Part shown: one piece after another, positions 842 to 56,700 of the stretch | Position numbering within the stretch: the stretch's first letter is position 1 | Layout: each line of letters opens with the position of its first letter | Assembly (NCBI RefSeq): GCF_009834535.1 | Contig: NC_045717.1 | Span: 27,280,001-27,344,000 of the forward strand | DNA from: Camelus ferus | Taxonomy: Eukaryota | Direction of reading: 5' to 3' | DNA length: 64,000 nucleotides | The notes under the pieces: generated by a model | The model's input: only the letters and a program-made list of their open reading frames with translations | What the model was told of the DNA's origin: nothing | Database searches by the model: none | Program-made: the position numbers and the translations under genes

Positions 842-3800
842 ATGGGGGACCACCAGCAAAGTTCACCGTATGGCCACCACACGTCGGAGCCCAAAGACAG
901 GTCGGAGCGGGTGCAGGAGGATGCCACGCTGGGCCTCCAGGGCACCGTGTATGAGAGCTGGGGGTCCAGGGACGCCAAATACCAGGATCTGGATGACAGG
1001 GAGCTGGGATCAGAGAGCCAGGAAGAGGAGATTCCCCCTGAGGTGACTGGGGAAGAGCTCCTGGACTCCCAGCACCCAGCAGAGGCCATCGCAGAGCTGG
1101 AGCGCGTTCTGGAGAAAGATGAGGAGGGTGTGCCAGAGATGAGGTGGGCCAGGGGAGTGGCTGCGCGGGTGGCGGGGGTGGGCTGGGTGGCCCCTGGGTG
1201 TGGCTGCACTGACGTGGGTTCCCCCGGGGCCTGAGACGCAGGCCAGGCACCTCACTGCCCCTGAGGAGGACATTGGCAAAGAGCCCCTGTCCGGGGGCTT
1301 ATGAGTTAGGGTGGGAAGCCCTGTAAAAGTGCTGCTTTGGGAGTTGAACAAAGTTTAGAGCGGCGGGAGGGTCACAAGTCGTGGCCCTTGGTCAGAAAGA
1401 AAAAGAAGTGGGAAAAAATCTCCCAATTCCCAAAGCTGAAACCCTTCCAAGTGCCACAAATGGCTAGAAATGCTGAGTACAGGCCGGAGGGCACATCCCG
1501 GGTGAGCTGAGCTGCTGCATGTCCTGCAGAGAAGCAGGTGCTCCCTCTCACTGTGGGATCTAGTGCCTTAGTGTGCGTGTGCGCGTGCACATGTGTGCAA
1601 GGGTCCCTGGGCTCCCTGCCCCCTGCCCCCTCTGCTTCCAGACAGTAGGTCAGCAGGTGCTACCCCCTGAGCCCCTGCACTGCAGAGGGACATTCACCCT
1701 CCCTGTACAATGACTCCTGTTCCCACAGAGCTTGCGTGAAGAGCACAGACCCATATGTGATGCGGCCGGCGGGGCAGGGGGTGTGTGCCTGTGCAGTCAC
1801 TGAACACCCTGGTCTGCCCTGTCTGTGGGCTTCCTGGGTGGTGGTGTGGAAAAGTGTTACAGCTCAGTTGTGACAGCAACCTGGATCCCGGTGAGAGACC
1901 AAGCAGCACTCGGAGAGTTGGAGAACTCTGGTTTATTACGCCAGCGGGCCCTGAGGAGTTAACACTCCAAGCTCTGGACCCCGTCTGTAGGTTTACATCG
2001 CTTTTATAGGCTGCCAGTTTATACTTTGCAACATCATATGCAAATGAGGTATAAGGAGAGTTGACTAAGAACAAGCTTTGTAGAAATGGACCAACCAGGA
2101 GTGAGCTCCATGCAAATAAAGTACTACAAATGGGCCAATCAGAAGTTAGGGAAGTGGGCCAATCAGGAGTGACAGAAATAACCAATCAGGAGTGAAGGAA
2201 ATAACCAATCAGAAGTGAGCTCAGGGAACCAATAGAATTTTAAGGGTAAGTAAGCTGGTTCAGAGGCAAAAAAGTGAAGATAGAGCCTCTGGGCTGGGGA
2301 ACTGGATGGTGCTGGCAGCAGAGTAGTGGCCCTGCTTGAGGGTCCTGCCAGTCTTTTTATGGGGCTTCCCGCCTCATTCCCCGCTTTGATGCTCTCTTTA
2401 ACATCTGTAGTGAGCATCAACCTTAGAGTGATGCCCCTTATTCACCATTGGGTTCTTCTGGTCCAGGGGCCTGTACTGAGTGACTAGTAGCTGTCGTATC
2501 AGTGACTCTACTCGTGAGCTAATGAAACAGGTAATGAGATTAAGGATGCAGGGGCCAAACAGCAGTGCTGAAAGGATCATAAGGAGGGGGCCTGCTAGGG
2601 GGAGGAGCCAGGAGGCCCAACCCCAGGGGTTAGTCCCCTGTGCCCAGGAGTTTGCTAATTCCTGGTTTCTGCGCCCAGCTCGATCTCGTAGTTGTTGGAC
2701 CATATTTCTGACAATTCCTGATCGATTTACATAGAAACAACATTCCTCATTTAGGAAGAGACAGAGTCCCCCCTTTTTGGGGGTGAGCAAGTCTAAACCC
2801 CTCCTGTTGTGTAGGACTACTGCTGCTAGGGAGTCCCACTGGTTTTGTAGCGTCATTAAGGACTCAGCCACCTGTTTTAAGCCTTCAGTGACCTCAGCAG
2901 ATAACTGCTGGTCATAGTAGGATGATGAGGCTATTCCTCCTATTCCTGTGCCCACTCCAGTCGCTATTCCAGCCCAACAAGTAGTGGTAGTATTAACTGG
3001 ATGGCCCTTTTTGATCAAGTATGGGCCATCAGGGGTACAGGAAGGCTCTGGTTATCAGGTATTATGTGTATCTGAGGGGTAAGGAAGGCCAGTGTGCAAT
3101 TACCTGTCAACTGGCTGGCAGGCGTGTGCCCCACCTACCAAAAAAGGTACCTGGGCTTGGTGTGCACCAGGGTTTGGCAGGCGTCCAACTGTAAACAGGG
3201 GTGCAGTTATGGGTTTGGGCACACTGGGCAGTGGCCAGATTTCCTACAGAATGTTTTGTCCCCGAGTTGTAGATGGAGGCGGGAGCTGTATGGGCCGGCT
3301 GTACATTAAGTGACTGGGGGCTTACATCTGTGGAGTCTGGGGACCACCCAGGGTGGCCATTAAACTTGGTTAGAGCTGAGAGACCTATCGGGCTTGCTGC
3401 ATGCTGGAGGGGGCTGGGACGCAGGCAGAGCCAGGAAGCACTCGCTAGTTGTGGGTTAGTAGCATTAAGGTGATGGACTTGCTTAATAAGGGACTTAATT
3501 GGGGGGTCCTGGTTATAAGGCATGGACCTAGGTCTATTTTTCTTTCCCAACCCTTGCTAGGTGTATAGAAGGGCCCTGAGCGTGTGGGCCGGGGATTTTT
3601 TCTGGGGAGCAGGTTCCTGCCAAATGCAATTTGGTGAATGGGTCCCATTGGAACCCCTGTCATGGAAAGAGATATGCCAGCAACTACTTTTGTAAGCAGA
3701 AGGGTTTGGGGCTTCACTTTTTCTAAGAGGGAGGTATGGTTCCTCCAGCAGATACCGACTGACCATTAGGCTTCCTATTGTAGAGAGAGTACAGCTGCTA

Positions 3801-6800
3801 TTAGTTTCTGGCCCATGTTCCAATCCTGGGGTGCAGTGGCTATCAGTCCTACAGCTAGTAATATAGTAACAATACTCAATAAAATAAAGTCGGGGCGGCA
3901 GTTCATTTTATGTCTTGATTGGTGGTTCCTCAGGCTTCTGCCGTGCGTTGACTAGCTAGCTTCCGAGTGTGGCTAGAGCAAGGCTTGGTGGTCTCCGGCA
4001 GGTGAGGCGGGTGTCTCTGGCCCCAATTTCGAGTGGCTCCTCGAGGTCCTGGTTGATTCTCCAGACGTCCTCGTCTCGTGGTGGTATTTCTCTCTTTACT
4101 CTGGTGTGATGAATCCATGGGGCGATATCTGCAACTTTAAGAGCTGTTGGGATGTTTAGTATAACTGGGTAGGGGCCCCTCCAAGTGGGTTCAAGGGGCT
4201 CCTTTTTCCAATCTCTTATCCAGACTTGATCTCCCGGCTCATATAGGTGTAACATTGTTCCCAGTGAGACTGGGATCCCATCAGTTACCCACCTATGGAC
4301 TTTCCGCATAGTTTTTTTGGAGACCCTGCATTTACTTATGAAGTTCTAAGCTTCCCACCTCTAACATTTTCCCCTAGTAACATCAGGGGAGGGGGTTTCC
4401 CATATAAGATTTCAAAAGGGGAGAATCCCGTCTTGGACCAAGGGGCGCAGAGTACCCACTGGAGAGCCATGGGCAGAGTGTCAGTCCAAGGTAGTTGAGT
4501 TTCTCAACTGAGCTTTATCATCTCCTTTTTAAGGGTCTGGCCCATGCACTCTATCCTCCCTGAATGCCAGGGCCTGTAGGCTTCTTGTAGATTCCAGCAG
4601 ATGTTTAGTGTTCTTACCACTTCTAGTATTTCTGCCACGAATGCGGGTCCATTGTCTGACCCTATGGTTAATGGCATCCCAAATCTGGGGATGATTTCTC
4701 TGAGTTAGGCCTTTGTTACTCCTCTTGCTTCCTCAGTCCGTGTTGGGTATGCTTCTACCCATCCTGAAAAGGTGCAGATAAAAACCAGCAAGTAGTTGTA
4801 TCCTCTGCTGGGCCCCACTTCTGCAAAACACATTTCCATATCTTTAAAAGGAGCCTGGCCAAGGCACTGGGTTCTTCTTGGTCTAGCTAGCTGACCCCTG
4901 TTGTGCATTATTCTGAGCACATGTGAGGCAGCGCTGAGACTGAGGCACAGAGGGATGGAAGTTGAGGGATCAGACAGTACCGCCCCAGCAGGGCCTCTGG
5001 GGCAGTCTTTCCCAGGTGGGCGAGCTCATGTTGCTGAGGGACCACCTGGTGGGCTAATCGTTCAGGTATATATATACACGTTTGTCAGGCATCACCCACC
5101 GTCCTTTTTTTCTGCTGGTTCCTTCTCTAGTTTTGGCCCATGAGTTTTTCTCGTGGCTGTATGCTGGAGATGTTGGCAGCAGTTTGGGTGCTGGTCGAAC
5201 CTTTGGGATGGCCCCAAGATCTCTGGCATGGCCTGATTCACTTGCCGCTTTGTGTGTACCCTGATCTGCTAGTTGTTTCTTGTTTATAGGGTTCATTTCC
5301 CTTTATGGTGTCCTTTATAGTGGATGATTGACATCTCTGTGGGCTCCCAAATTGCCTCTCACCATAGTACCTGGGGAACTTGTCTGCCTTTGGATCATGG
5401 TGGTCGTAGACATGTTGGTTGGTTTCTTTGCCCCAGCTCACAACCCATGTAGGAGGGCTCTCCAATATGTCTGCAGAGCCTTCCGTTCAGCTTGGGAGTT
5501 AGTTCCATTCTGGTCTTGTCTCTGGGGCTGCATTCCGGGCCCATTCTTCCACATCCATGGTTCCCTCTGGGGCCTGCTTTTGTAGCCATTTTCATTTTTG
5601 TAGCCGTTTCTGTTATGATCTGCTTTCTTTCTTTAGTATTGAAGAGTGTCAGGAGCAGCTGTTGAATGTCATCCCAAGTTGGCCGGTGGGTCTGGAAGAT
5701 GGACTCCAGGAGGTCAATCATGGCCTGGGGTTTTTCCGAACATGGCAGAGTGTGGTGTCGCCAGTTCAGGAGATCCATTGTACTGAAAGCCTGATAGTAC
5801 GGGATGGAGTGGCTGGGCTGTACGGGGCCATCATCGTTAGCTTGTTGGGGCTCTTGGGTCTCCCGGAGAGGCCTCTGTAGAATGGCCGCTGGCTGGGTGT
5901 CCTGCGGGGCTGAACAGAGTTTCCACCCCTTGGGCTCCCAGCTCAGAGCCTGGGGCCACCGTGGCGGTACAAGCAGTGGTGGACCGTCCGGTAGAGGCAG
6001 CTGTGGTGGAGCTGCAGTAGCAGTAGGAGCATTTGGCAGGGGTAGCACTGGCAGTTCTTCAGGGTTTACCTGAAGGACTGGCCTCGTGTCTTTTTCCATC
6101 TTTAATGTCAGAACCATGAGGATCTTATATTGTCCTTGACCGTTTGTGTAGACCCGGACCCATGGAGGCAAGGTTTGGGCGATTGTTAGCCAAGAATCAA
6201 TATATAGGAGTTGGTCGCGGTGCCCTGGGGGCGTGGTGATTATCCAGTGTACTGTCCCTGACAGCTGACAGGTCGAGCGTGCCTTCCAGGGGCCATCCCA
6301 CTCCAAAGGTGGGCCACTCTGACTCGCACCATGTGTGCAACTTTTTTGGTGTCAATTTAATTCCATAGTTGCCTGAGAAACCCTTTTTGAAATTTTTAAC
6401 CATGCAGTCCAGAACTGTCGGCTTTGATTTTGAGGATCCCTTTACTATTAGTTGACAGAGTTCATGGCCCATAGGTGTGGGTCTGCTTCTGGCACTGAGG
6501 ACTGTGACCCCCGTATCTTCTTCCCACTCCTCAAAACAGTGGAGTTCTCAAAAAAGCTGGCTGCCTCACTGGGCCTAACATCTACCTGCTTGGCTGCAAG
6601 TGCTGCCAGTGAGTTGGGGTTTCCACATTAGGCAGGTAACCCTGAGACTCCCCCAGGCCTGGATGAGCTCTGGGGGCCCTGTATAAGTCTTTTTATAGCC
6701 TGAATTGACAAAATATGAGGCCAGAGTGGCTGGCTGGTGGCAGAATAAGTGAACCAAAATAAGGGGGACGTCAGAAGTGAGTTCCAGCCAGTCCTGGGTT

Positions 6801-9800
6801 GGCTCCCTCTAGGCACAGGTCTTGTAGTCTTAATTTCAGACTGGTAAGTATATTGAGACTAGGTTTATTGATTGCGACAGGATATTCTGGGGGACTGGTG
6901 ACAAGGTCGCGTCTGAAACTGTTTAACATCGTCTCATCTTTGCCCCTAAGGACACAGGGGTCATTTACTCATAGACTGTTCTGCGTCCCTTTCCCTCCCT
7001 GTGTAGCCATCCTGTGCCGGTGTCGCAAACGGGACAAAGGGAGGGTTTTCCCTGCGTCTGCCTGGCCACTCCTCTCACGGGGATGAAGGCGCTAATTAGC
7101 TTCAGCGGGTCAGTATAAACCACTGACTCCAATCGATTCCCTGAGGGGCCGATACCGCCATGAGCCATGTAATGTTACCACAGAACCGCAGGTTGGGACT
7201 CACTCAAACTCCGTAGCAGAATGCCATGGAGCCACAAACTCGAACCTGACCGCATGCTTTTCAGGCTGCACCCACCCACCCCACACACACACCCAAACAC
7301 AGATTATTTGCACATTCCCTCCCCTACCGTCAGGTGGGGAGCTGGAGGAGGTGACCAGTCTCCTCTTCTGTCCTCAGAACACAACCTGATTACCCTAACC
7401 TAAATATGGATGCTTCCCAGAGCTCCTACCTTGTTCGGCCACATTGCTTGGTGAGTTGGTCTATTCCTCCACCAAGTCCAGTTGGGGCACAGCCGCCCAG
7501 AGGACCGAATCACCTCCGCAAAGGAGGACCTGCAATACTGTCAGGCGGCGCACCTCCTTGTTCACTTCTGGAGTTCCCGGTGGTTGCTCCGATGCTGCTG
7601 CGGCGTAAGGAAACAGCATGGTTGGAATCCCGCTGGGGCCTTCAAAAATGTCACGGAAAAATGTGTTACAGCTCAGCATTATAGCTCGGTGTTACAGTTC
7701 AGTTGTGATAGCAACCTGGATCCGGGCTAGAGACCAAGCAGCACTAGGATAGTTGGAGAACTCACGTTTATTATGCCAGCAGGCCCAAAGAAGTTAACAA
7801 TCCAAGCTTTGAACCCTGTCTGTAGGTTTACACTGGCTTTTATAGGCTGCCAGTTTACACTTTGCAACATCGTATGCAAATGAGGTATAAGGAATGTTGA
7901 CTAATTAAGAACAAGCTTTGTAGAAATGGACCAATCAGGAGGGAGAGAAATAACCAATCAGGAGTGAGGGAAGTGGGCCAATCAGGAGGGAGAGAAATAA
8001 CCAATCAGGAGTGAGGGAAGTGGACCAATCAGGAAGGAGAGAAATAACCAATCAGAAGTGAGTTCAGAGAACCAATAGAATTTTAGGGGTAAGTAAGCCG
8101 TTCCAGAGGCAAAAAGTGAAAATAGAGCCTCTGGGCCAGGGAACCGGTTGGTGCTGGCAGGAGAGTAGTGGCCCTGCTTTGGGGGGGGGGGGGTCCCCGC
8201 CTCAGTAGAGGGCACTCTGTGACCTAGTGCCCCTTTGGGCTCTGGTGGCCATTTGTCTTCTGACCCTGAGAGGCGGGAATGAGTCTCTGCTCGGTTCACA
8301 GAGGAGGGAACTGAGGGGCGCACTGGTGGAGAACTTAGGGTCTTGGTCCAGGTCGTTGTGATGCCAGAATTCTCCTCCAGAGAGACCTCTTTAGGAGGCC
8401 AGGAGACCCATGGGGTGGGGGGTGGGGGAGAGCAGAAGGATGGGTCTGGGCTGCAGAGGGGGAAGCGGGCACCTCCGACCTCACCCCCCGACTCTCCCGA
8501 AGCCGGCTGTCCATCTCCCAGAGGCTCCCCAGCACCTCCGTGGGCCGGGAGAGGAGGAAGAGGAGGCGGCTCTTCGAGCTGGCCAAGCCCAAGACCAACT
8601 GGCACGTCCTGAAGGACAGGTGAGGGTCCGTGGAGGGGAGCCCGGGCCCCAGGCCCCCTCTGTCCCCACATGCCAGGTGGGTTCTGAGGGGGGTGAGAAG
8701 TCAGGAGCCCAGCGCCAGGGTGGGCGGGGCCCTGTCTCCCGCAGGATGGGGTGCTGCTGCAGGGGCTATGCGTGGATCACCCCCCGCATGAGGAGCCTGC
8801 AGTTCTGTGTCTACTGGTGAGTCCAGGCCCCCCGCATGCCCTCCACGTCCAGGGGCCCGTCTCTCGAGTCCCTCTACTCTCCTGGGATGGGTCCAAGGCA
8901 GAGCTCTTGGCTGGGGGCCCCCACCCAGGACTCCTGGCCCCAGCTTGAGATGGGTTGGCTCCCCAGATGACCGCTGGGCCCCTTTCTCAGTTACACTTCT
9001 TTTTTCCCCCAGCTCCTTCCTCCTCTGAACACCTGCTTTGCTCAAAATAATCTTCACTCCCCACAGCTCTAAGACTTTCTCCCCTGCCCCTCTCTGACTG
9101 CCCCTTCTGCAACCCCCCACTCTGTCTCCTCCCTCCCTCCCTATCCAGCTGTTCTCCTCGAGGTTGAGTTCACAGGGCGCCCTGAGTCCTGTTCCTGAGC
9201 CGGGCGCAGGATGTCTGGGCCCTGCCTCCCTCACCCTGAGCCCCGCTGGGTGTGTTCCAGGCCATCTGTGTACTGGACGGAGAGATTTCTCAAAGACACC
9301 ACCCTCACCATCACAGTGCCGGGTGGGTGGAGCCCACCTGCCTCCCTCCTCCCAGGGCGGCCCATCTCACCCTGACCCGTGCCCCCCCTGCCCCAACCCT
9401 GCCAGGAGTCCCCTGGGGCTGCTCGTTCCTCGTCACCCAGGAGTACCCCCACCCAATCTTCCAGGGGTCCTCTCCAGAGTCTGTCCCCCATCAGGAGGCT
9501 GGCCTTGGGGGAGGGCTGTGGGGCCCACTGTCCAGGGGACGTGGCAGCCAAGGAGGGGCCAGTGTCAACTTCACAGAGGACCCTTCCCTTCTTTCCACAG
9601 TAGCTTCTACACTAAGTGCAGCAGGTCCCTTTAAATTAAACGTTTCAGGAAAGCTCATTTCTGGAGAGAAGCTCAGGGTGTGTTCTCCCTCAGGGTTCAG
9701 AAGCCCCGACCGGAGGCCTGTCCTGACTTCTGGCCAAAATCTGCTTTCCCACTGGTGGGCCTGCCGCGCCCCCGTCCAGCCCTGCTGCTCCCAGACCGGG

Positions 9801-12800
9801 ACCCGCGGTTCCCAGGCAGGGTGTCTGGTGTAGGGGGTCGGGTTTGAGTCAGGCTGTTGCCCTTTTCCCGCAGAGGTGTCCCGCCGGGTGGAGGAGCTGG
9901 CTCGACCCAAGAGGTTCTACTCAGAGTGCTACAGCAACAACAGGTGGGGCCCCCGCGACTCTGGGGTGGGCGGGGGCAGGGCCAGGGCCGGGGCCGCCCC
10001 CTCCAGGGCCTCGGGCACTGAGCCTCGGGGCTGCGCTCCCGCGGGAGATGCTGGAGACGCAGAGGCACTTGCCCAGGGTGAGCAGCGTGGGCCCCGGGGG
10101 CTCCAGAGGCTGGCAGCTGTGAGATGCCTCGGGGCACCGTGCCTTCTGTGCTGGTTGGAGTGTGGTCTGGAGGGACAGGACACAGGCTGCAGTGTCTTAT
10201 CTGGTGCTGGCATGGAAAGGAGGGCACCTGAGATGAACTGGCTGAATCCAGTGCAAATGTTCTGAGTCGCTTTCCGCTCAGCCCCACCCACGTCTTCCAC
10301 GTGCCAGTAACCCCTCACCTTAATGCCGATCACGAGCGATCGATGTCTGACTTGGAGGTAATTTACTCTGCGTGTGACGTAGCACCTGCAGAACCAGGTG
10401 CGTGGAGCTCGGCTGGGCTGACCCGTGTGATGCCCGCATCCCAGCACATCCAGGCAAGGACGACCTGGGCCTCTGGCGGCCGTGTCCCTGTGGTCCAGCC
10501 TGAGGGATGTGAAAATGAGAGTCTGCTTCAGACGTGGTTGTTTCTGGAGCAGAAGCAGAGCTGAGATCTGATTTTAGGAGGCGCGGGGCCTGCGGTGTGG
10601 GGAAGCTCTTTCCTGGCTTCCTGTGGGCACTCGGAAGCACACTCTCTACCCATGGCATCCAGTTCCCAACTTGCCCTGGTTGGGGGGGGGTATGGGGGAG
10701 GCCTGGGAAGGGCGGGCGGCACAGGATCTCCTGAGAGCGTCACTCTGACCCTGAGGACACTGGGGGCTCTTTTATGAATCCTCCTTGGAGGTATTTTCAA
10801 AACTCTCCATGGTCCCAGGCTCCCCTGATCCCCAGAATCAGAGAGCAGCTGAGAGGGGGGTGTCACCCACACATAGAAGCACACACATGTCCCCCTGGGC
10901 CTCCAATGTGGCTGTCCCTCAGGACCACCTCCGTCTGGCCCATTGCCCGGTCCACCTTGGGATACCAAGCGTCCAGTCGCCTGAGGGAACTGGCCAGGCC
11001 GAAGATGCGGAGCAACATCTGGAGCACCAGCATGTCCGAGGTAGGTACCTGTCTCTCCTGGATTGGCCCTGCTCCCCGCAGGCCCCCCACAACCCCGGCC
11101 CCAGGCTGCGGTCAGGGGCCTAGGAGGACAGGAGGGAACAGACTGCAGAGCAGTAGACACATCACTGCCTTCCTGTGAATCCTCCAGGATTTGTTCCAGA
11201 GAAAGCTTTACTTTCCTGCCCTGCCTGGAAGCCTGCTCCAGGACCACCCTCCCTGCCCCTCAGCTCAGAGAGGAGCCCAGAGCCTTCCGCCCAGTCTCAG
11301 GTTACCAGAAAGCTCAGCGCGTTCTGAATCCAGCCCTTACCTCTCCTCCCCAGCTGGGGCCTGACTCGGCCCCGTAGGCCCCCTCCGGCCACTCCTGATG
11401 AGACACGCTCTCCTGGGAAGGGGCCATGGTGTGGGCACGGCTCACCCGCTGAGGGACGTGTGGCTGTTTGTGGGTTTAGGCTCCTGCACACACAGCTGCG
11501 TGAACCTCTGAGCTCGGGTCTCTGTGGGGATAGTTTCTGTGCGTCCGGGGTGAACACCTGGAAGTGGGCTTGCTGGGTCCGGAGGCCTGTCTGACGTCAG
11601 AAACTGGCCAGCTGCGTCCACGGCAGCCACTCTGTCCAGCACCATCTGTGCCTTTGCTGGTCGCTCTGCTTGTTGCCTCCCAGCTGGCTGGCTGACAGAC
11701 GTGCCGCGGGTGGCACGGTGGCTCCACGCGCGTTGAGTCGTGTGCGGACGGGTGCTTTCACGAGCTTATTTGACAGACCCTGCTTTAAACCTTTGAAAAG
11801 TAAACCCAGGCATCTCAGCACTTCCTAATCAGTGCTTCCTTGTAGATTGCTGACAGAGGAGGCTACTTTGAAAACAACCGTAACGATAATAGTTACACTG
11901 GAAGACTGAACAACGTTACCTTAGTGTCAGCATACCCTGTCCACGTGCTGTCTCCCCATCTGTCTCAAAAAATGGCTTTTAGAGTCGGTTTTGTTTGGTT
12001 GCATCAGGATCCAGGGGGAGGGGGCACTGGCCTTCTGACCTGCCCACCTCTTGCCTGGTGATGCACCTGCTGTTGCCCTGGCCCCTGCCTCTCCTTTGCC
12101 GGTTCAGCCGTCAAGCCCTCTGTGCCCAGCGCCCTCCGTGGCTCCCCAGTACGCTCCCCGGGAACGTCAGCAGGACGGGGTCTTCTCCACCACTCCGCCC
12201 GCATGTGTCCCCTCTGTTGGACTAAATGCTGCTCCCTCTACAAGGCCCCCGGCCTTTGCACGTGTCGTCCCCCTACCTAGACTCCGGCTCTGCTCCTGTT
12301 CCGCCCAGCCTAGGGGGAGCCCCACCTCCAGACTCCTACACCAGAATTTCCCTCCGCAGCGCCTCTCACACAGGCTTGGACTGGACTGTCGATTCCTGCA
12401 CTGCACAAAGGGGCTTGTCTATCCTGGTGTCCAGACCTTGCCTTGTCCTGGGCAGGCATTGGAGTGGTCCTCAATATTATTCCAGTGCCTGAATAAACCA
12501 GTGTTTACCTGCCTGTGGTCTGCCCTCCAGGCTGGGGCTCCTTGAAGGCAGGACTGCAGTCTGACTCACCTCCACCTCAGCTGGTGACAGCTGTGGGGGC
12601 CACGGGCAGGGGTGGGGGGAGGAGAAGGGGAGGGGAGGGGAAAGAAGGACGGAGGGAAGGACAGAAGGAGGGACACGAGTCTGTAAACACCAAGATGTCT
12701 TTAGTGAGAGCAGTGTCTGTGGTTTCCAAGCAGGACAATGTCAGGAGACAGGGACTCAAGTTTCAGTGAACCTTGGAGATGGTTTCAGCCAGTCCTCTGC

Positions 12801-14904
12801 CTCCAGGCAGTCTCCTACCCAAAGCGCACCTAGCAGAGAGCTTTCGGAACACATGACATGCCCGAGGGTTTGGGCAGGTTTATTCTGACCTCCTCCCTTT
12901 AGGAGTAAAACATTCCCCCCTTCCCCTGCGCCCTCCCACTCCAGAGGAGTCAGGACGGCCCCCACCTCCACTGGGCAGACACACTCAGGTTTTGTCCATT
13001 CTTTAAGAACGTTTACACGTGTAAAGGAGCCGGCTGGCGGGGAGGGGGCAGCCTGGGAGGAGCGGATCTGGTTTGCACTTTTTTTGGGGGGGGGTGGCGA
13101 GAGCGGGACAACGATTAACCGATTTGCCGCCAGCTGATGGCGCCGCGTGACAGCCGGTTTCAAAGGCACTTGTCATGTGTGGATTCCCTGCGAGACACTG
13201 AGCTGCCTCTGTGGGTTTCTTAGTAAACCGTCTGCCGTCCTGCACTTTGGCCGGCTCTGCCTCGTTTCCATCATTTTGTACTTTATTATGCAAATAGATC
13301 CATAAACTATAATCACAGTGTGTTGTGTGTTTAATATACACATGTGGACTCTCTTCTTTCTTGCTTTCCCCTCAATGTCTGCTCTCTAGAGCACTGTGGG
13401 CTCGTTTATGTAGAAGCTGTGTTTTTACTGCTGGGTTGTGTCCGGGCACAGGAGTATACCCGTTCACCAACCCATCCCCGACTGATAGGCACCGAGGTTG
13501 TTTCCAGGTGCCCCGGTTGCCAGCCACGGAGATGTCCCCCCGCTTACCCTCCCGCCGTGGTGTCAGTGGTGTCCAGGGTGCATGTCCCCCGCTACTGGGG
13601 ATGGACGGTTGCTCTCCCAAGTGCTGGAGCCTCCCCTCCCCACCCTCTGTGTTCTTGCCAGGACTTGATAAGGTCAGACTTTTTCACTTTTGCCAAGTTT
13701 GTTGGCGTGGAGCGATGTTTTGCTGTTTTAATTACATTTCCCTGGTCCACAGAGAGGCTTGCTGATCCCTTGGCTTGCTTGCCTACCTGATTGGCTCAGG
13801 TTCCTGTCGTTCTTTTGTGTTATTGATTTAGAGGAGCTCTTTATTTGTGATGGTTGCTAATCCTTTGCTGAACACGCCGCAAACTACCCTCCTCCTAGTC
13901 TGTCTTTGGTCTTTCAGTATTGCCATGGGGTTGTTTGGTCTGGGGCATAAGGGAGAGTCACGAATAACTCTGTTTCCAGGTGTCCCAGGTGTCCAGGGCA
14001 GCCCGGATGGCCGTGCCCAGTCCCAGGATCCTCCTCTTGGCCAAGCCCAGGGCTCCAGCCACCCTGCTGGAAGAGTGGGACCCCATGCCGAAACCCAAGC
14101 CACACGTGTCCGACTACAACCGCCTCCTGCACTTGGCCAGTAAGCAGGTCCCTGGGGCTTGGTGCCTTGTTGGGGGTCCTTCCCCACCAGACACAGACGG
14201 GCAGTCAGTGGACTTGCACCTGCTTCTGCCAGATTCGTGCTTCCCTCATCTTCCCCTTGAACTGCAGAGCCACGGTCCAGACCCCTGTGGATAATTCAGA
14301 CTGTGGCCCACAGGGCCCCCTGGAGCTGGGGACCTGTCCCCCGGGGTCGGGTGTGTGGGCCTGGGCAGAGGGTCTCCTGGCACCGCAAGTGGCTGCAGAA
14401 GAGGAAGTCGGGGTGTGGGGCCGGGGCCTGGAGGGCTAAGCTGAGGCCCACGGGTGGCTGGTGTGGCGTTGGCCTGACTTTCTTCCCGTCCCGTAAAACA
14501 AAGGCAGTACCTGGTTCCCCCCAACAAAAGTAGCGTGCCCTGACTGCAGAGACTTTGGAGGAGGCAGAGTACTGTGGAGAAGAAAGGGATCCCACCACCG
14601 AAGGCAGCTTGCTGTGTCTCCCTCTGGGGTACACGTGAGGTGCACAGAGACCCCCAGACACACGCAGCCCTCTGGGGCCCTGCATGCCTGTCCCGCACCC
14701 CTGTGGCCAGTGCCCGGCAGGAACCCCCTACCAGGAGAGCAGCACCAGCCAGGAAGAGAGGAGGCCTCCCACACTCCCCTCCCCACCGAGACATCGGAGG
14801 AAGGAGTGGGAGAAAGGGCTGACTGAACGCCTTCCTCACCCCTGGCCCCTGGCACCTCCATCTCTCCCCTCTGAGTCTCTCTGTCTGGGACCTGTGACCA
14901 TTTC

Positions 14905-14937
<33 letters not shown>

Positions 14938-15647
14938 TTCACCCTTTTAAAGTGCCCAATTCAGCATCTTTCAGTACATTCACTGAGCTATGCACTCATC
15001 ACCTCTAATTCTAGAACATTCCACGTACTGTCCCCATGAGCAGCCACCCCACCCCCTACTCAGCCCCTGACAACCAGGAATCCCCTCTCCTGTCTCTGTG
15101 GACTGGCCTGTTCTGGACGTTTCACATCCATGGAGTCACACACTGTGTGTCCTCCTGTGTCTGCTTCTCTCCCTGAGCATCGTGTTCTCAGGGTCCATCC
15201 ACGTGGTGGCAAGTGTCAGGGCTGCTCTCCTTTTCACGGCTGAGTGATGCTCCTGTGTGTGGAGGGACACGCGTGTGTGTATCTGCTCAGCTGTCGTCGG
15301 ACAGGCCATTGAACTTGGGAGCTCTAACCCAGGAGGCTGACCTCTGCAGGGGCGGGCCCCACACGCAGGGCTCCGGGCCTGACCTGTCCTTCTCTCCCGC
15401 CCTTCCAGTGCCCAAGGCCCAGTCAGACAAGTGTGTTCCTGACCGAGATCCACGCTGGGAGGTGCTGGAGATCACCAAGAAGGCAGTGGCCAGTCCCCGG
15501 GTCATCTCGCTGGCCAAGCCCAAGGTGCGGAAGTGCCTGAACGAGGGCTACGACCCCTGCCGCATCTCCCCCGCCTCCCTGGTGGCCCGGGCGTCCCCAC
15601 GCCTGCACGAGCTCGCCACCCCCAAGGGTGTCACCGGAAGAGTCTGA
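842..15647 (+). CDS. THEG: Testicular haploid expressed gene / sperm microtubule-associated protein 2, 8 coding exons, 379 aa
   Basis: Exons 842-1143, 8503-8619, 8745-8816, 9261-9322, 9874-9943, 10923-11040, 13980-14139 and 15409-15647 all have AG/GT boundaries, join in frame and total 1140 nt. The translation (MGDHQQSS...ELERVLEKD..SRLSISQRLPS..RRLFELAKPKTNWHVLKDR..GYAWITP..PSVYWTERFLKDTTLTITVP..VSRRVEELARPKRFY..ATLLEEWDPMPKPKPHVSDYNRLLHLA..PKAQSDKCVPDRDPRWEV..) matches THEG as I recall it. Confidence 0.95.
1842..2376 (-). mobile_element. ERV 3' LTR
   Basis: Aligns with 7649-8204. On the minus strand it starts TGAGGCGGG, with TATAAAA (2002-2008) and AATAAA (1932-1937). It is immediately preceded by the polypurine tract AAAGCGGGGAA (2377-2387). 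Confidence 0.9.
2398..3906 (-). pseudogene. env: ERV env remnant (SU disrupted, TM largely open)
   Basis: SU has SWLC (degenerate CWLC) in LNATNPQLASASWLCLRP. The furin site reads tga-tca-aaa-agg (*SKR, 3017-3006), then AIQLILPLLVGL and a 1-nt frameshift. The TM ORF carries the immunosuppressive domain LHNRRGLDLLTPKKGGL, CLFLNEECC (CX6CC) and a hydrophobic anchor WLLPLAGPLLMILSALLFGPCIL, with the stop at 2398-2400. Confidence 0.9.
4000..5370 (-). pseudogene. pol: ERV pol remnant (RNase H C-terminus and integrase)
   Basis: EAIWEPTEMSIIHYKGHHKG (RNase H end), HLGKTAPEALLGRY..CLTCAQNN (HHCC), YLLVFICTFSGWVEAYPT, GSDNGPAFVA and [30 protein letters not shown]. Multiple stops and frameshifts. Confidence 0.9.
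5371..6442 (-). pseudogene. gag: ERV gag remnant (MA, proline-rich region, N-terminal CA)
   Basis: (K)GSSKSKPTVLDCMVKNFKKGFSGNYGIKLTPKKLHTWCESEWPTFGVGWPLEGT (MA; the presumed ATG appears as AAG at 6442-6440) and FSTMDLLNWRHH..SEKPQAMIDLLESIFQTHRPTWDDIQQLLLTLFNTKER (MLV-like p30). Frameshifted and truncated at about 5371. Confidence 0.9.
7627..7644 (-). other. ERV primer-binding site, tRNA-Thr-like
   Basis: Minus strand TGAAGGCCCCAGCGGGAT begins 4 nt after the 5' LTR end. It is 16/18 identical to TGGAGGCCCCAGCGAGAT, the complement of the tRNA-Thr 3' end as I recall it. Confidence 0.7.
7649..8204 (-). mobile_element. ERV 5' LTR
   Basis: Homologous to 1842-2376. Has TATAAAA (7838-7844), AATAAA (7767-7772) and seven CCAAT boxes in a 23/24-bp repeat array, and is followed by the PBS. 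Confidence 0.9.
12240..12500 (+). mobile_element. L2 (LINE-2) 3' remnant
   Basis: ggcctttgcacgtgtcgtcccc...gtggtcctcaatattattccagtgcctgaataa resembles the degenerate L2 3' end. Boundaries approximate. Confidence 0.5.
13285..13900 (-). mobile_element. Old L1 3' remnant, GC-shifted
   Basis: Resembles the antisense L1M 3' region (tgttttgctgttttaattacatttccctg, aggagctctttatttgtgatggttgctaatcctttg). Boundaries approximate. Confidence 0.55.
14905..15320 (-). mobile_element. L1MB-like 3' end with poly(T)
   Basis: A T run of about 28 nt is followed by acaattcacccttttaaagtg..ttcagtacattcac..ttctagaacatt..ctggacgtttcacatccatggagtcacacac. Confidence 0.7.
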
Positions 15648-53700: not shown

Positions 53701-56700
53701 ATGACTCCATCCGGTACCCCTACCGTCCAGACACCATCACCCACGGGCTCATGGCCGGGGTCATCATCTCAGCCACCGCCATCCTTGTAAGGGCAGAGAG
53801 CCTCCGAGGGAACGGGTGGGTGTTAGTTCTGCCCAGGGTGGTGTCTGTGGGGAAGAGGGCCCCTTTCAGAGTGCCTGGGTCCCGGTGACGTCAGGGCAGC
53901 CAGGAGTCCTGACCCCTTTCAGTGGGTGGGACCTAGCGAGGCCCAGTGCCCCTGCCTGGTGGAGACCCCACGGCTGCTACCCCTGCAGGTGTCAGCCGGG
54001 GAGGCCTACCTGGTGTACACGGACCGCCTCTACTCCCGCTCCGACTTCAACAACTACCTGGCCGCCATCTACAAGGTGCTGGGGACATTCCTATTCGGGG
54101 CTGCTGTCAGCCAGTCACTGACAGATCTGGCCAAATACATGACTGGCCGCCTGCGGCCCAACTTTCTGGCAGTGTGTGACCCCGACTGGAGCCGTGTCAA
54201 CTGCTCAGTGTACGTGCAGGCGGAGGTGTGCAGAGGAAGCCCTGCTAACATCACCGAGTCCAGGTGGGCAGTGCTGGAGGGCCTGGGCACAGACACACAC
54301 CCCCAGGAGCAGAGGGGTGCTAGAGAAGGGCCCTCAGGAGCTGGTTATTGAGGGATGAGGTGCTGGACAGAGAAGGTGAAGAGGCAAGACATTGGCAGAG
54401 AACAGGCGGGAGCAGGGCCTGGAGGTGCTTGTTGGCCTGCGTCCCACAGACGGGAGGTGAGGGTCCAGGGATGCCGGCAGGCCCAGGAGCGAAACAGTAG
54501 GTGTCAGGAGACAAGCTCCACCTCCTAAATTTCAGGCCCCATTCTCATGCTTCTGCTCTGTCCTCTCACCATCTCTACTGATAGAATTTTCATTTAATTG
54601 ATGTTCTTATTTTACCTCTTTAAAAATTAAGTGAAATTCGCATAGCGTAAAATCCACCAGCTTAACCGTCTTAATGTGTACCATTCATTGATTTTTGGCA
54701 CATTCACAATGTTGTGCATCCATCCTCCTAATGTTATTCCAGAATATTTTCATCATGGAAAAAGAAACTCCATGTCCATTCTCTATAGCCCCCCTCCCCC
54801 AGCTCCTGGCAACCAGGTCCCCCACTCTCTGTGTCTGTGGACTGGCCTGTTCTGGACGTTTCACATCAGTGGAATCACACATTGTGTGGCCTTTGTGTCT
54901 GGCTGCTTCAATGTTTCAGAGTTCATCCATGTTCTCACTTCTGTCAGTTTTTGCTTTGTGTGCTTTGAGGCTCTGTTTTTAGGTGCGTATATCTTTGCAA
55001 TTGTTATGTCTTCTTGATGGATTGATCCTTTTATCACTATATAATGTCCTTTGTCCCCCAGCAGTTTTTGACTTAATATCTATTTTGTCTGAGAGTAGTG
55101 TAGCCACTCCCGCTGTCTTTCAGTTACTGTTTACTTCCATTCTTGTTCTTTCAGCCTATTTGTGTCTTTGAATCTAAAGTCAGCATCTTGTACACAGATG
55201 TTTTTTCAATCTTTTCTCCAATCTCTGCCGTTTAATCGGGGAGTTTAATACATTCATTGTAATTACCGATATTTTGTCATTTGTTTTCTATATTTTGTAT
55301 CTTTTTTGTTTTTCAGTTTCTCCACCAAGGCCTTTTCTGTTACATAGGTATTTACTATGCAAAAAATTTGCAGCTATATGACTCTACCCTCTACGAGGTT
55401 ATTGTCAAAAATTATGTCTTTATACATTGTGTGCTCATCAACATAGATTTATAATTACTGTTTTATGCAGTTTTTTTAAAAAATGAGGTATTGTTGTCAT
55501 ATGACATTATTAGTTTCAGGTGTACAACACAATGATTTGATACTTGTATGTCATGTGGAATGAGCACTGTAAGTCTGTTCAACATGTCATGATGTATGCA
55601 TGTTTTTACTTAATCATGGAGGGAAAAATAGGAACTGTAAACCAAAACACATTATTACTGATGTTCATATTTTGTAGTTACTCTCACTGTTGTCTTTTAT
55701 GTCTCTGTGTGGATTTGAGTTACTGTCTAGTAGCCTTCATTTCTCCTTGAAAGACTCCCTTTTGCATTTCTTGTGGAGCAGGTGTATGAGCTATGAATTC
55801 TCTCGGTTTTTGCTTGTCTGGGAATGTCTAAATTTCTCCTTTATTTTTAAAGGATGATTTTGCCGGATAGAGAATTCTTGATTGACAGGTTTTTTTGTTT
55901 CTCTTACTGTAATTTGAATATGTCGTCCTTCTGGCCCCCATGGTTTCTGATAAGAAATTAGCTGCGAATCTTATTGAAGATTCCTCATACATAATAAGTC
56001 CCTTCTTTTGCTGCTTTCAATGTTTTCTCCTTGACTTTGTCTCTTGGTAGCTTGATTAGAATGTGTCNNNNNNNNNNNNNNNNNNNNNNNNNNNNNNNNN
56101 NNNNNNNNNNNNNNNNNNNNNNNNNNNNNNNNNNNNNNNNNNNNNNNNNNNNNNNNNNNNNNNNNNNNNNNNNNNNNNNNNNNNNNNNNNNNNNNNNNNN
56201 NNNNNNNNNNNNNNTACCTATTGTGTATATGTTGCTACGATTTGATGGTGTCCCACAAGACTGGGGCGCATTCATTTTCTTCATTCTTTTTATGTTTGGT
56301 GCCTCAGACCAAAATTCTCAGCTGACCTGGCTCCATGTTCACAGACTCTTCTGCCTGCCCAGGTCTGATTTTGAGCTCCTCTGGTGATTATTTTATTTCA
56401 AATACTACAGTTTTGAATTCCAGAATTTCTGTTGTGTTCATTTTTATAACGTCTGTTTCTTCTTGATGTTCTATATTAGGTGAGACATTTTCACAGTACC
56501 TTTAGCTCTCTGAACACAAATGACACGTTAAAAGTCTTTGTCTAGTAAGTCTAACGTCTGGGGTTCCTCAGGGACAGCTTCTATTAGTAGATTTTTCCCC
56601 CCTGTGTATTGCCCACATTTTTTTCCCCCCGTGTGCCTTGTAATTTTTTTTGTTGAAAAGTGGGCTTTTAAAAATTGAAGTATATAGTCAGTTATAATGT

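What the first reader, a model, noticed from the sequence alone, without database searches (positions are those of the whole stretch)
1842..8204. Near-complete ERV provirus inside intron 1 of an intact testis gene
Seen: a 6.36-kb two-LTR provirus antisense to THEG expands intron 1 from about 1.0 kb to 7.36 kb, and the 3' LTR ends about 700 bp from exon 1, yet the THEG ORF is intact. By-eye LTR-LTR divergence of about 10% outside the repeat array and a 3/4 TSD imply an old, probably fixed insertion. Inference: it may be a poorly described camelid ERV family, and it is unusual that it was not reduced to a solo LTR in a germline-active locus.
Basis: partly seen in the sequence, partly recalled or inferred. 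Interest (0 to 1): 0.7.

Follow-up and report, generated by a model that had tools for sequence, protein, structure and literature searches.

The report
Gutted old camelid retrovirus inside THEG
An old retrovirus copy sits backwards in the first intron of a camel sperm gene and is spliced out of that gene's message; it lacks its own copying enzyme, shares the same gap with about 25 other copies in the genome, and so likely spread on helper copies' proteins, a pattern already known in other mammals.

Summary
The element is real: a two-LTR, class I (gamma-like) ERV at 1842-8204, antisense in intron 1 of an intact THEG/SPMAP2 gene, with a tRNA-Thr primer site, a 3/4 target-site duplication and 10-11% LTR divergence. 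It is not near-complete. About 2.7 kb (second half of capsid, nucleocapsid, RT, most of RNase H; protease by position) is missing at a 6-nt microhomology, and 29 of 38 records examined carry the same junction (about 25 insertions). Branches among these deleted copies show no protein constraint; branches among long copies do. It is therefore best read as a non-autonomous subfamily spread in trans, like IAP I-delta-1 or cattle D-type ERVK. An alpaca gene model shares private residues with this copy, so the insertion likely predates the camel-alpaca split. RNA contigs show exon 1 spliced straight over it. One run also shows two provirus-strand splices matching this copy. An in-frame 102-nt cryptic exon is annotated in alpaca but was not seen in camel RNA. 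Two-LTR survival is a minority fate (about 2-3% of insertions), with no sign of a locus-specific cause. No paper on this family was found.

The parts
842..1143 (+). THEG/SPMAP2 exon 1, coding part (host gene)
   Evidence: 100% to P0001; spliced to exon 2 in RNA runs X1 and X3
1838..1841 (.). Left target-site copy GTGG
   Evidence: family duplications are 4 bp
1842..2376 (-). 3' LTR; five CCAAT words at 2135-2233, two ATGCAAAT words, provirus-strand AATAAA at 1932
2377..2390 (-). Polypurine-tract-like stretch
2521..3906 (-). env remnant, broken by stops and frameshifts; TM closest to syncytin-2 and syncytin-1 among solved structures
   Evidence: TLV_coat E 1.5e-46
3998..5353 (-). pol remnant: end of RNase H and integrase with MLVIN_C domain, broken
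4144..7429 (-). Provirus-strand GT-AG intron (leader donor to env acceptor), seen spliced in one RNA contig
   Evidence: run X1, depth 8, side 28 nt; nearest other fetched copy has 5 mismatches over both sides
5354..5359 (.). Junction of the about 2.7-kb deletion; 6-nt microhomology GCCTCT found at both ends of the missing piece in long copies
5360..6450 (-). gag remnant: matrix and first half of capsid, broken
   Evidence: Gag_MA, Gag_p30
7007..7108 (+). Cryptic 102-nt in-frame cassette exon (AG...GT) in the antisense of the viral leader; used in alpaca model XP_072804272.1, not seen joined in camel RNA contigs
   Evidence: no joint
7627..7644 (-). Primer-binding site, 16 of 18 nt complementary to host tRNA-Thr(UGU) with CCA added
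7640..7765 (-). 126-nt provirus-strand GT-AG intron; its donor GTGAGT lies just past the 5' LTR AATAAA and is absent from every other LTR listed
   Evidence: run X1, depth 17, side 29 nt
7649..8204 (-). 5' LTR with a 23/47-nt CCAAT tandem array (7922-8062)
8205..8208 (.). Right target-site copy GTAG
8503..8619 (+). THEG exon 2

Best explanation
This is an old, broken, RT-less copy of a camelid class I (gamma-like) endogenous retrovirus that lies antisense in THEG intron 1 and is spliced out of the THEG message; it likely spread by borrowing proteins from longer helper copies, and it likely inserted before camels and alpacas split. Shown: structure, deletion, shared junction, copy numbers, splicing of exon 1 to exon 2. 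Inferred: (1) one template-switch deletion at a 6-nt microhomology made a short genome that kept LTRs, primer site, leader and polypurine tract; (2) it was packaged and copied in trans, giving about 25 surviving proviral insertions against about 9 dispersed long ones plus a cluster on one contig; (3) this copy was tolerated because its own poly(A) and splice signals face away from THEG and its cryptic THEG-strand exons are mostly skipped; (4) its 5' LTR likely still makes some provirus-strand RNA in the reproductive tract.
For: Same junction letters in 29 of 38 records (window plus 37 fetched), against 8 with the 2.7 kb and 1 truncated. Deleted copies cluster: 23 of 25 in one clade (100/99) on RNase H-integrase, 27 of 29 (100/99) on leader-matrix (the 29 included truncated L033, labelled deleted by default). 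Codon position 1+2 / 3 branch-length ratios (699 codon bootstraps, 5-95%): inner branches among long copies gag 0.32 (0.19-0.50), integrase 0.32 (0.19-0.50), env TM 0.48 (0.23-0.94); among deleted copies gag+integrase 0.90 (0.70-1.23), env 0.95 (0.61-1.49); non-coding leader control 0.93 and 0.96. The alpaca insert matches this copy best (27 of 34, bits 59.3) and shares residues G8 and L29 that no other listed copy shows. Exon 1-exon 2 splice in X1 and X3; both provirus-strand joints are GT-AG and fit this copy.
Against: The long copies were not shown to be the actual helpers. Deleted copies are not strictly one clade (2 changes; L020, L024, L026 move, likely recombinants). The alpaca evidence is one predicted protein, and L001 and L031 also reach 27 of 34 identities. 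The provirus-strand joints are single contigs in 1 of the 4 bulk RNA runs laid (X1; not X3, X5, X8), with sides under 30 nt; contigs cannot show strand or level, and depth inside the element (20-44) is within the range of other THEG introns (7-38).
Confidence: 0.82

Rival explanations
1. The deleted copies arose by host segmental duplication or gene conversion of one damaged provirus, not by retroviral copying.
For: Some records are host duplicates: L011/L018 share flanks, L029/L030 are a tandem array, L010 is near-identical to L011 internally.
Against: Most copies have their own flanks and their own 4-bp duplications, lie on many contigs, and have LTR pairs 3-17% apart.
Confidence: 0.03
2. 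The deleted form supplied Env while env-damaged long copies supplied Gag-Pol: a two-part partnership.
For: Most deleted copies keep the env region, while L001 has env deletions and L004, L037 and L038 do not match it; first-pass env TM ratio 0.46-0.64.
Against: After removing duplicates and recombinant-like copies, pooled env ratio is 0.95 (0.61-1.49), no lower than gag+integrase; env was lower in only 45% of replicates.
Confidence: 0.07
3. The provirus has been kept by selection at THEG: it donates a camelid cassette exon, or its antisense RNA or LTR tunes THEG in germ cells.
For: In-frame exon in alpaca RefSeq isoform X3; stop-free in both species; provirus-strand splices in a run that holds spliced THEG; survival within 300-700 nt of two exons, a depleted zone (PMC3088655).
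Against: Splice sites and the open frame are present in most paralogous copies, so they are inherited, not selected. 7 of 34 residues differ between camel and alpaca. Three species' models use three different ERV pieces (P0005, P0002, P0122), as cryptic splicing or gene-prediction noise would. No camel contig joins the exon.
Confidence: 0.12
4. Assembly artefact.
For: None found.
Against: Both junctions are bridged in independent runs; models of three other camelid assemblies contain pieces of it.
Confidence: 0.01

Closest known systems
Trans-complemented defective ERV forms: IAP I-delta-1, ETn/MusD, RecKoRV, cattle ERVK[2-1-LTR] D-type (PMC10924933, PMC1331978; passages read)
   Same: Internally shortened genome with intact cis ends, outnumbering its long partner; no need for its own proteins.
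   Different: This family is class I, 10-25 My old and extinct by appearance. It has a simple deletion rather than the central-segment swap described for the D-type, ETn and RecKoRV pairs. No constraint was found on the retained integrase.
Class I gamma-like ERVs outside the MLV-related clade (HERV-ERI-like neighbourhood; scheme of PMC4724089)
   Same: Gag_MA, Gag_p30, one CCHC knuckle, MLVIN_C, gamma-type TM, 4-bp duplication; RT 46-61% identical to bat, lizard, primate and MLV-type relatives.
   Different: No close named relative. It sits on a long branch in an unresolved group; TM is nearest syncytin-2/-1. That the primate cluster with AAA73090.1 is HERV-I is recalled, not tested.
HERV-T / S71 (MLV-like supergroup)
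   Same: Threonine primer (recalled for HERV-T).
   Different: RT falls on the other side of a 99/98 branch from MLV, PERV and kin; TM scores 72 bits to S71 Env against 166 to syncytin-2.
Fixed antisense intronic ERVs (PMC1794541, PMC3088655; passages read)
   Same: Antisense orientation; host exons spliced across it; occasional cryptic exon use.
   Different: More than 5 kb long and under 1 kb from both exons, where full-length LTR elements are depleted.
Short ERV1 clusters noted in alpaca (PMC8605555; passages read)
   Same: Proposed non-autonomous camelid ERV1 elements.
   Different: Those are described as mostly lacking coding domains; whether this family is among that paper's clusters was not checked (library and supplements not seen).

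Membership tests
Endogenous retrovirus provirus | Two LTRs with TG...CA ends and a target-site duplication | tested here: met
   TSD 3 of 4
Endogenous retrovirus provirus | tRNA primer site and polypurine tract inside the LTRs | tested here: met
   16 of 18 to tRNA-Thr(UGU); tract is degenerate
Near-complete provirus | gag, pro, pol and env all present | tested here: not met
   about 2.7 kb with capsid second half, nucleocapsid, RT and most of RNase H missing
Class I (gamma-like) ERV | Gamma-type Gag, RT and TM | tested here: met
MLV-related gammaretroviruses / HERV-T | RT within the MLV-related clade | tested here: not met
   (99/98 branch; the camelid row is long, so its place is unsure)
ERV-Fc / HERV-HF | tRNA-Phe primer and multiple zinc fingers (PMC4798954, PMC4724089) | tested here: not met
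   Thr primer; one clear CCHC knuckle in 5 of 8 long copies
HERV-ERI supergroup | Pol groups with HERV-E, ERV3, HERV-I references | tested here: inconclusive
   unresolved polytomy; no named references in the tree
Trans-complemented non-autonomous ERV form | One shared internal lesion in many independent insertions | tested here: met
   29 of 38 records, about 25 insertions
Trans-complemented non-autonomous ERV form | No purifying selection on its genes while it spread, with selection in the helper lineage | tested here: met
   intervals are wide
Trans-complemented non-autonomous ERV form | Mobilisation by helper proteins shown directly | not testable with these tools
   inferred only
A named Repbase/Dfam camelid ERV1 family | Match to a library entry | not testable with these tools
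Exonised ERV cassette exon | Both junctions seen in RNA | tested here: inconclusive
   alpaca model only; no joint in camel contigs, which drop rare forms

The most novel reading that the evidence does not exclude
The fossil provirus still makes its own strand of RNA in the male tract, helped by a new splice donor beside its 5' poly(A) signal, and that RNA masks the cryptic THEG-strand exons it carries. Camels skip the 102-nt exon; alpacas partly include it, adding 34 virus-derived residues to a sperm microtubule protein. The locus would be a natural test of the antisense-shielding model of PMC1794541.
Probability: 0.1. Interest if true: 0.6.

Novelty: new member of a known kind. Interest (0 to 1): 0.3.

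Why it matters
It gives camelids a worked example of a defective ERV form overtaking its helper, with a selection signature to back it, and a dated presence/absence marker shared by Old and New World camelids. The locus also puts a cryptic in-frame exon and an apparently transcribed antisense provirus in one short intron of a sperm gene, so an old hypothesis on why antisense ERVs are tolerated could be tested there. None of this changes a known principle.

Tried and rejected
Env-supply partnership: suggested, not upheld by the bootstrap on the cleaned set. ERV-Fc membership: rejected on primer and zinc-finger count. HERV-T kinship from the Thr primer: rejected on RT tree and TM scores. Read depth as evidence of provirus transcription: not usable, contig depth overlaps other THEG introns. 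Single-cell runs X19 and X22 had no THEG reads in the share read, X5 covered exon 1 only, and X8 covered only LTR words. A protein search with the cassette frame found nothing, not even the alpaca model, so it is uninformative. The window LTR value 0.139 is inflated by the misaligned CCAAT array and was set aside. Empty-site or solo-LTR alleles could not be scored, because no single lay spanned both flanks. Earlier scan notes concerned other loci.
Full report
Observation. The window holds two related LTRs at 1842-2376 and 7649-8204 on the minus strand. They are flanked by GTGG and GTAG; sister copies with readable ends show 4-bp duplications. Both LTRs carry CCAAT arrays. Outside the array they differ by K2P 0.103 (368 sites; 0.079 without CpG), or 0.113 by the method used for all copies. 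The primer site matches 16 of 18 nt of host tRNA-Thr(UGU) genes. The host gene is THEG/SPMAP2 of a Camelus genome: eight exons from 842 to 15647 give P0001 exactly, and seven give P0004. Intron 1 is 7,359 nt; the element is 698 nt from exon 1 and 298 nt from exon 2.

What is missing. Pfam finds matrix, the first part of capsid, the integrase C-terminal domain and env, all in broken frames, but no RT. A genome search across 4900-5900 returned 23 places matching end to end and others split by about 2.7 kb (40 of 63 candidates scored). I fetched 39 stretches. L003 and L039 hold solo LTRs; of the other 37 plus the window, 29 carry the same junction, 8 carry the extra 2.7 kb and one (L033) is truncated with long-type sequence. 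The extra piece holds the rest of capsid, one CCHC knuckle, RT and RNase H; protease is placed there by position only. Its two ends share GCCTCT, as a template switch would leave (inference). Removing host duplicates (L018, L030, L010, possibly L032) leaves about 25 insertions. A search with RT found 13 places at 79% identity or more, six on one contig (40 of 65 scored). The long copies whose frames I listed are also broken.

How it spread. Deleted copies cluster in both trees (2 label changes against 7.4 and 6.6 in shuffles), with L020, L024 and L026 moving between regions. Branch lengths by codon position on fixed trees gave ratios (1+2)/3 of 0.32 for gag and for integrase among long copies, and 0.75 and 1.19 among deleted copies, whose intervals include 1; the non-coding leader gave 0.93 and 0.96. 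Ten records were dropped first (L011, L018, L030, L032, L020, L024, L026, L027, L031, L033). The long lineage therefore needed its proteins and the deleted lineage did not, as expected for complementation in trans. An early hint of env constraint vanished (0.95, 0.61-1.49). Known cases are listed in PMC10924933 and PMC1331978 (passages seen).

Age. LTR pairs of 24 deleted copies have median K2P 0.11 (0.034-0.17) and of 5 long copies 0.105, so this copy is typical. At 5e-9 per year (the rate used in PMC8605555, passage seen) it is 10-11 My old; at a recalled mammalian 2.2e-9 it is 23-26 My. Alpaca model XP_072804272.1 has a 34-residue insert matching 7007-7108. The window copy scores best, and residues G8 and L29 are shared with no other listed copy, so the insertion likely predates the Camelini-Lamini split, put at 11-25 Mya in PMC4884201 (passages seen). 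Wild-camel model P0002 and Bactrian model P0122 contain other pieces of the element.

Solo LTRs. A 19-nt LTR motif occurs 723 times in G000 and in 27 of 67 fetched LTR hits, implying about 1,800 LTRs; one search had 1,735 candidates. About 42 places with internal sequence make proviruses roughly 2-3% of insertions, if other LTRs are solo (not checked). Survival is the minority fate but has many peers. Full-length LTR elements are depleted within 2-5 kb of exons (PMC3088655) and antisense ones are better tolerated (PMC1794541; passages seen).

RNA. One search gave 24 runs; 7 were laid. In X1 and X3 (one study, labelled reproductive system) exon 1 joins exon 2 directly, and the main form skips exon 3. 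No contig joins 7007 or 7108. X1 alone shows two joints that read GT-AG on the provirus strand: 7429-4144 (leader donor to env acceptor, depth 8) and 7765-7640 (depth 17). The second uses a donor GTGAGT just past the 5' LTR AATAAA, found in no other LTR listed. The nearest other fetched copies differ at 5 and 9 positions over the two sides. These are single contigs with sides of 28-29 nt, so provirus-strand transcription is likely (about 0.6), not shown. That this donor could suppress the adjacent poly(A) signal is speculation from recalled U1 biology.

Placement. RT is 46-61% identical to the 40 relatives aligned and falls outside the MLV-related clade, in an unresolved group with bat, primate, lizard and caecilian sequences. 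TM is nearest syncytin-2 and syncytin-1. It is not ERV-Fc, which uses tRNA-Phe and has several zinc fingers (PMC4798954, PMC4724089; passages seen). Searches listed no paper on this family or locus; PMC6675863 was seen as a listing only, PMC11831830 as one passage. The repeat library and supplements of PMC8605555, Repbase and Dfam were not seen and may already hold the family.

Verdict. A real, old, RT-less non-autonomous ERV copy, tolerated in an antisense intronic position: a new member of a known kind. The alpaca exon and the antisense splices are leads worth a look in raw testis reads. Interest 0.3.

Noticed in passing
L003:3112-3642 (about 8.7 kb upstream of the provirus): A solo LTR of the same family, same orientation, upstream of THEG.
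   Followed up: partly
window 8616-9871: RNA run X1 shows exon 2 joined to 9010, 9258 and 9871; skipping of exon 3 (8745-8816) is the main form in X1 and X3.
   Followed up: no
window 8279-8502: RefSeq models P0003 and P0121 start just past the 5' LTR and lack exon 1; could be an LTR antisense promoter or a prediction artefact caused by the long intron.
   Followed up: no
L029 and L030 (G000:C17:36.27-36.29 Mb): Three head-to-tail units of the deleted provirus sharing LTRs, about 0.5% apart: a recent tandem amplification or an assembly artefact.
   Followed up: no
G000:C27:24.63-24.95 Mb: Six long, RT-bearing copies clustered within about 320 kb, probably a segmental duplication array.
   Followed up: no
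homologue of window 5835-5937: An about 100-bp tandem duplication in gag is present in several deleted copies (L008, L009, L012, L014, L015, L022, L025, L029) but not in the window copy.
   Followed up: no
L001 and L028, homologue of window about 3040-3731: A long copy and a deleted copy share nearly the same env deletion, suggesting recombination between the two forms.
   Followed up: no
window 1860-2330: Very high summed contig depth over the LTR in X1 (about 4,000) suggests that this LTR family is common in reproductive-tract RNA; contig depth cannot prove it.
   Followed up: no
window 56068-56214: One run of 147 N, far from the finding.
   Followed up: no
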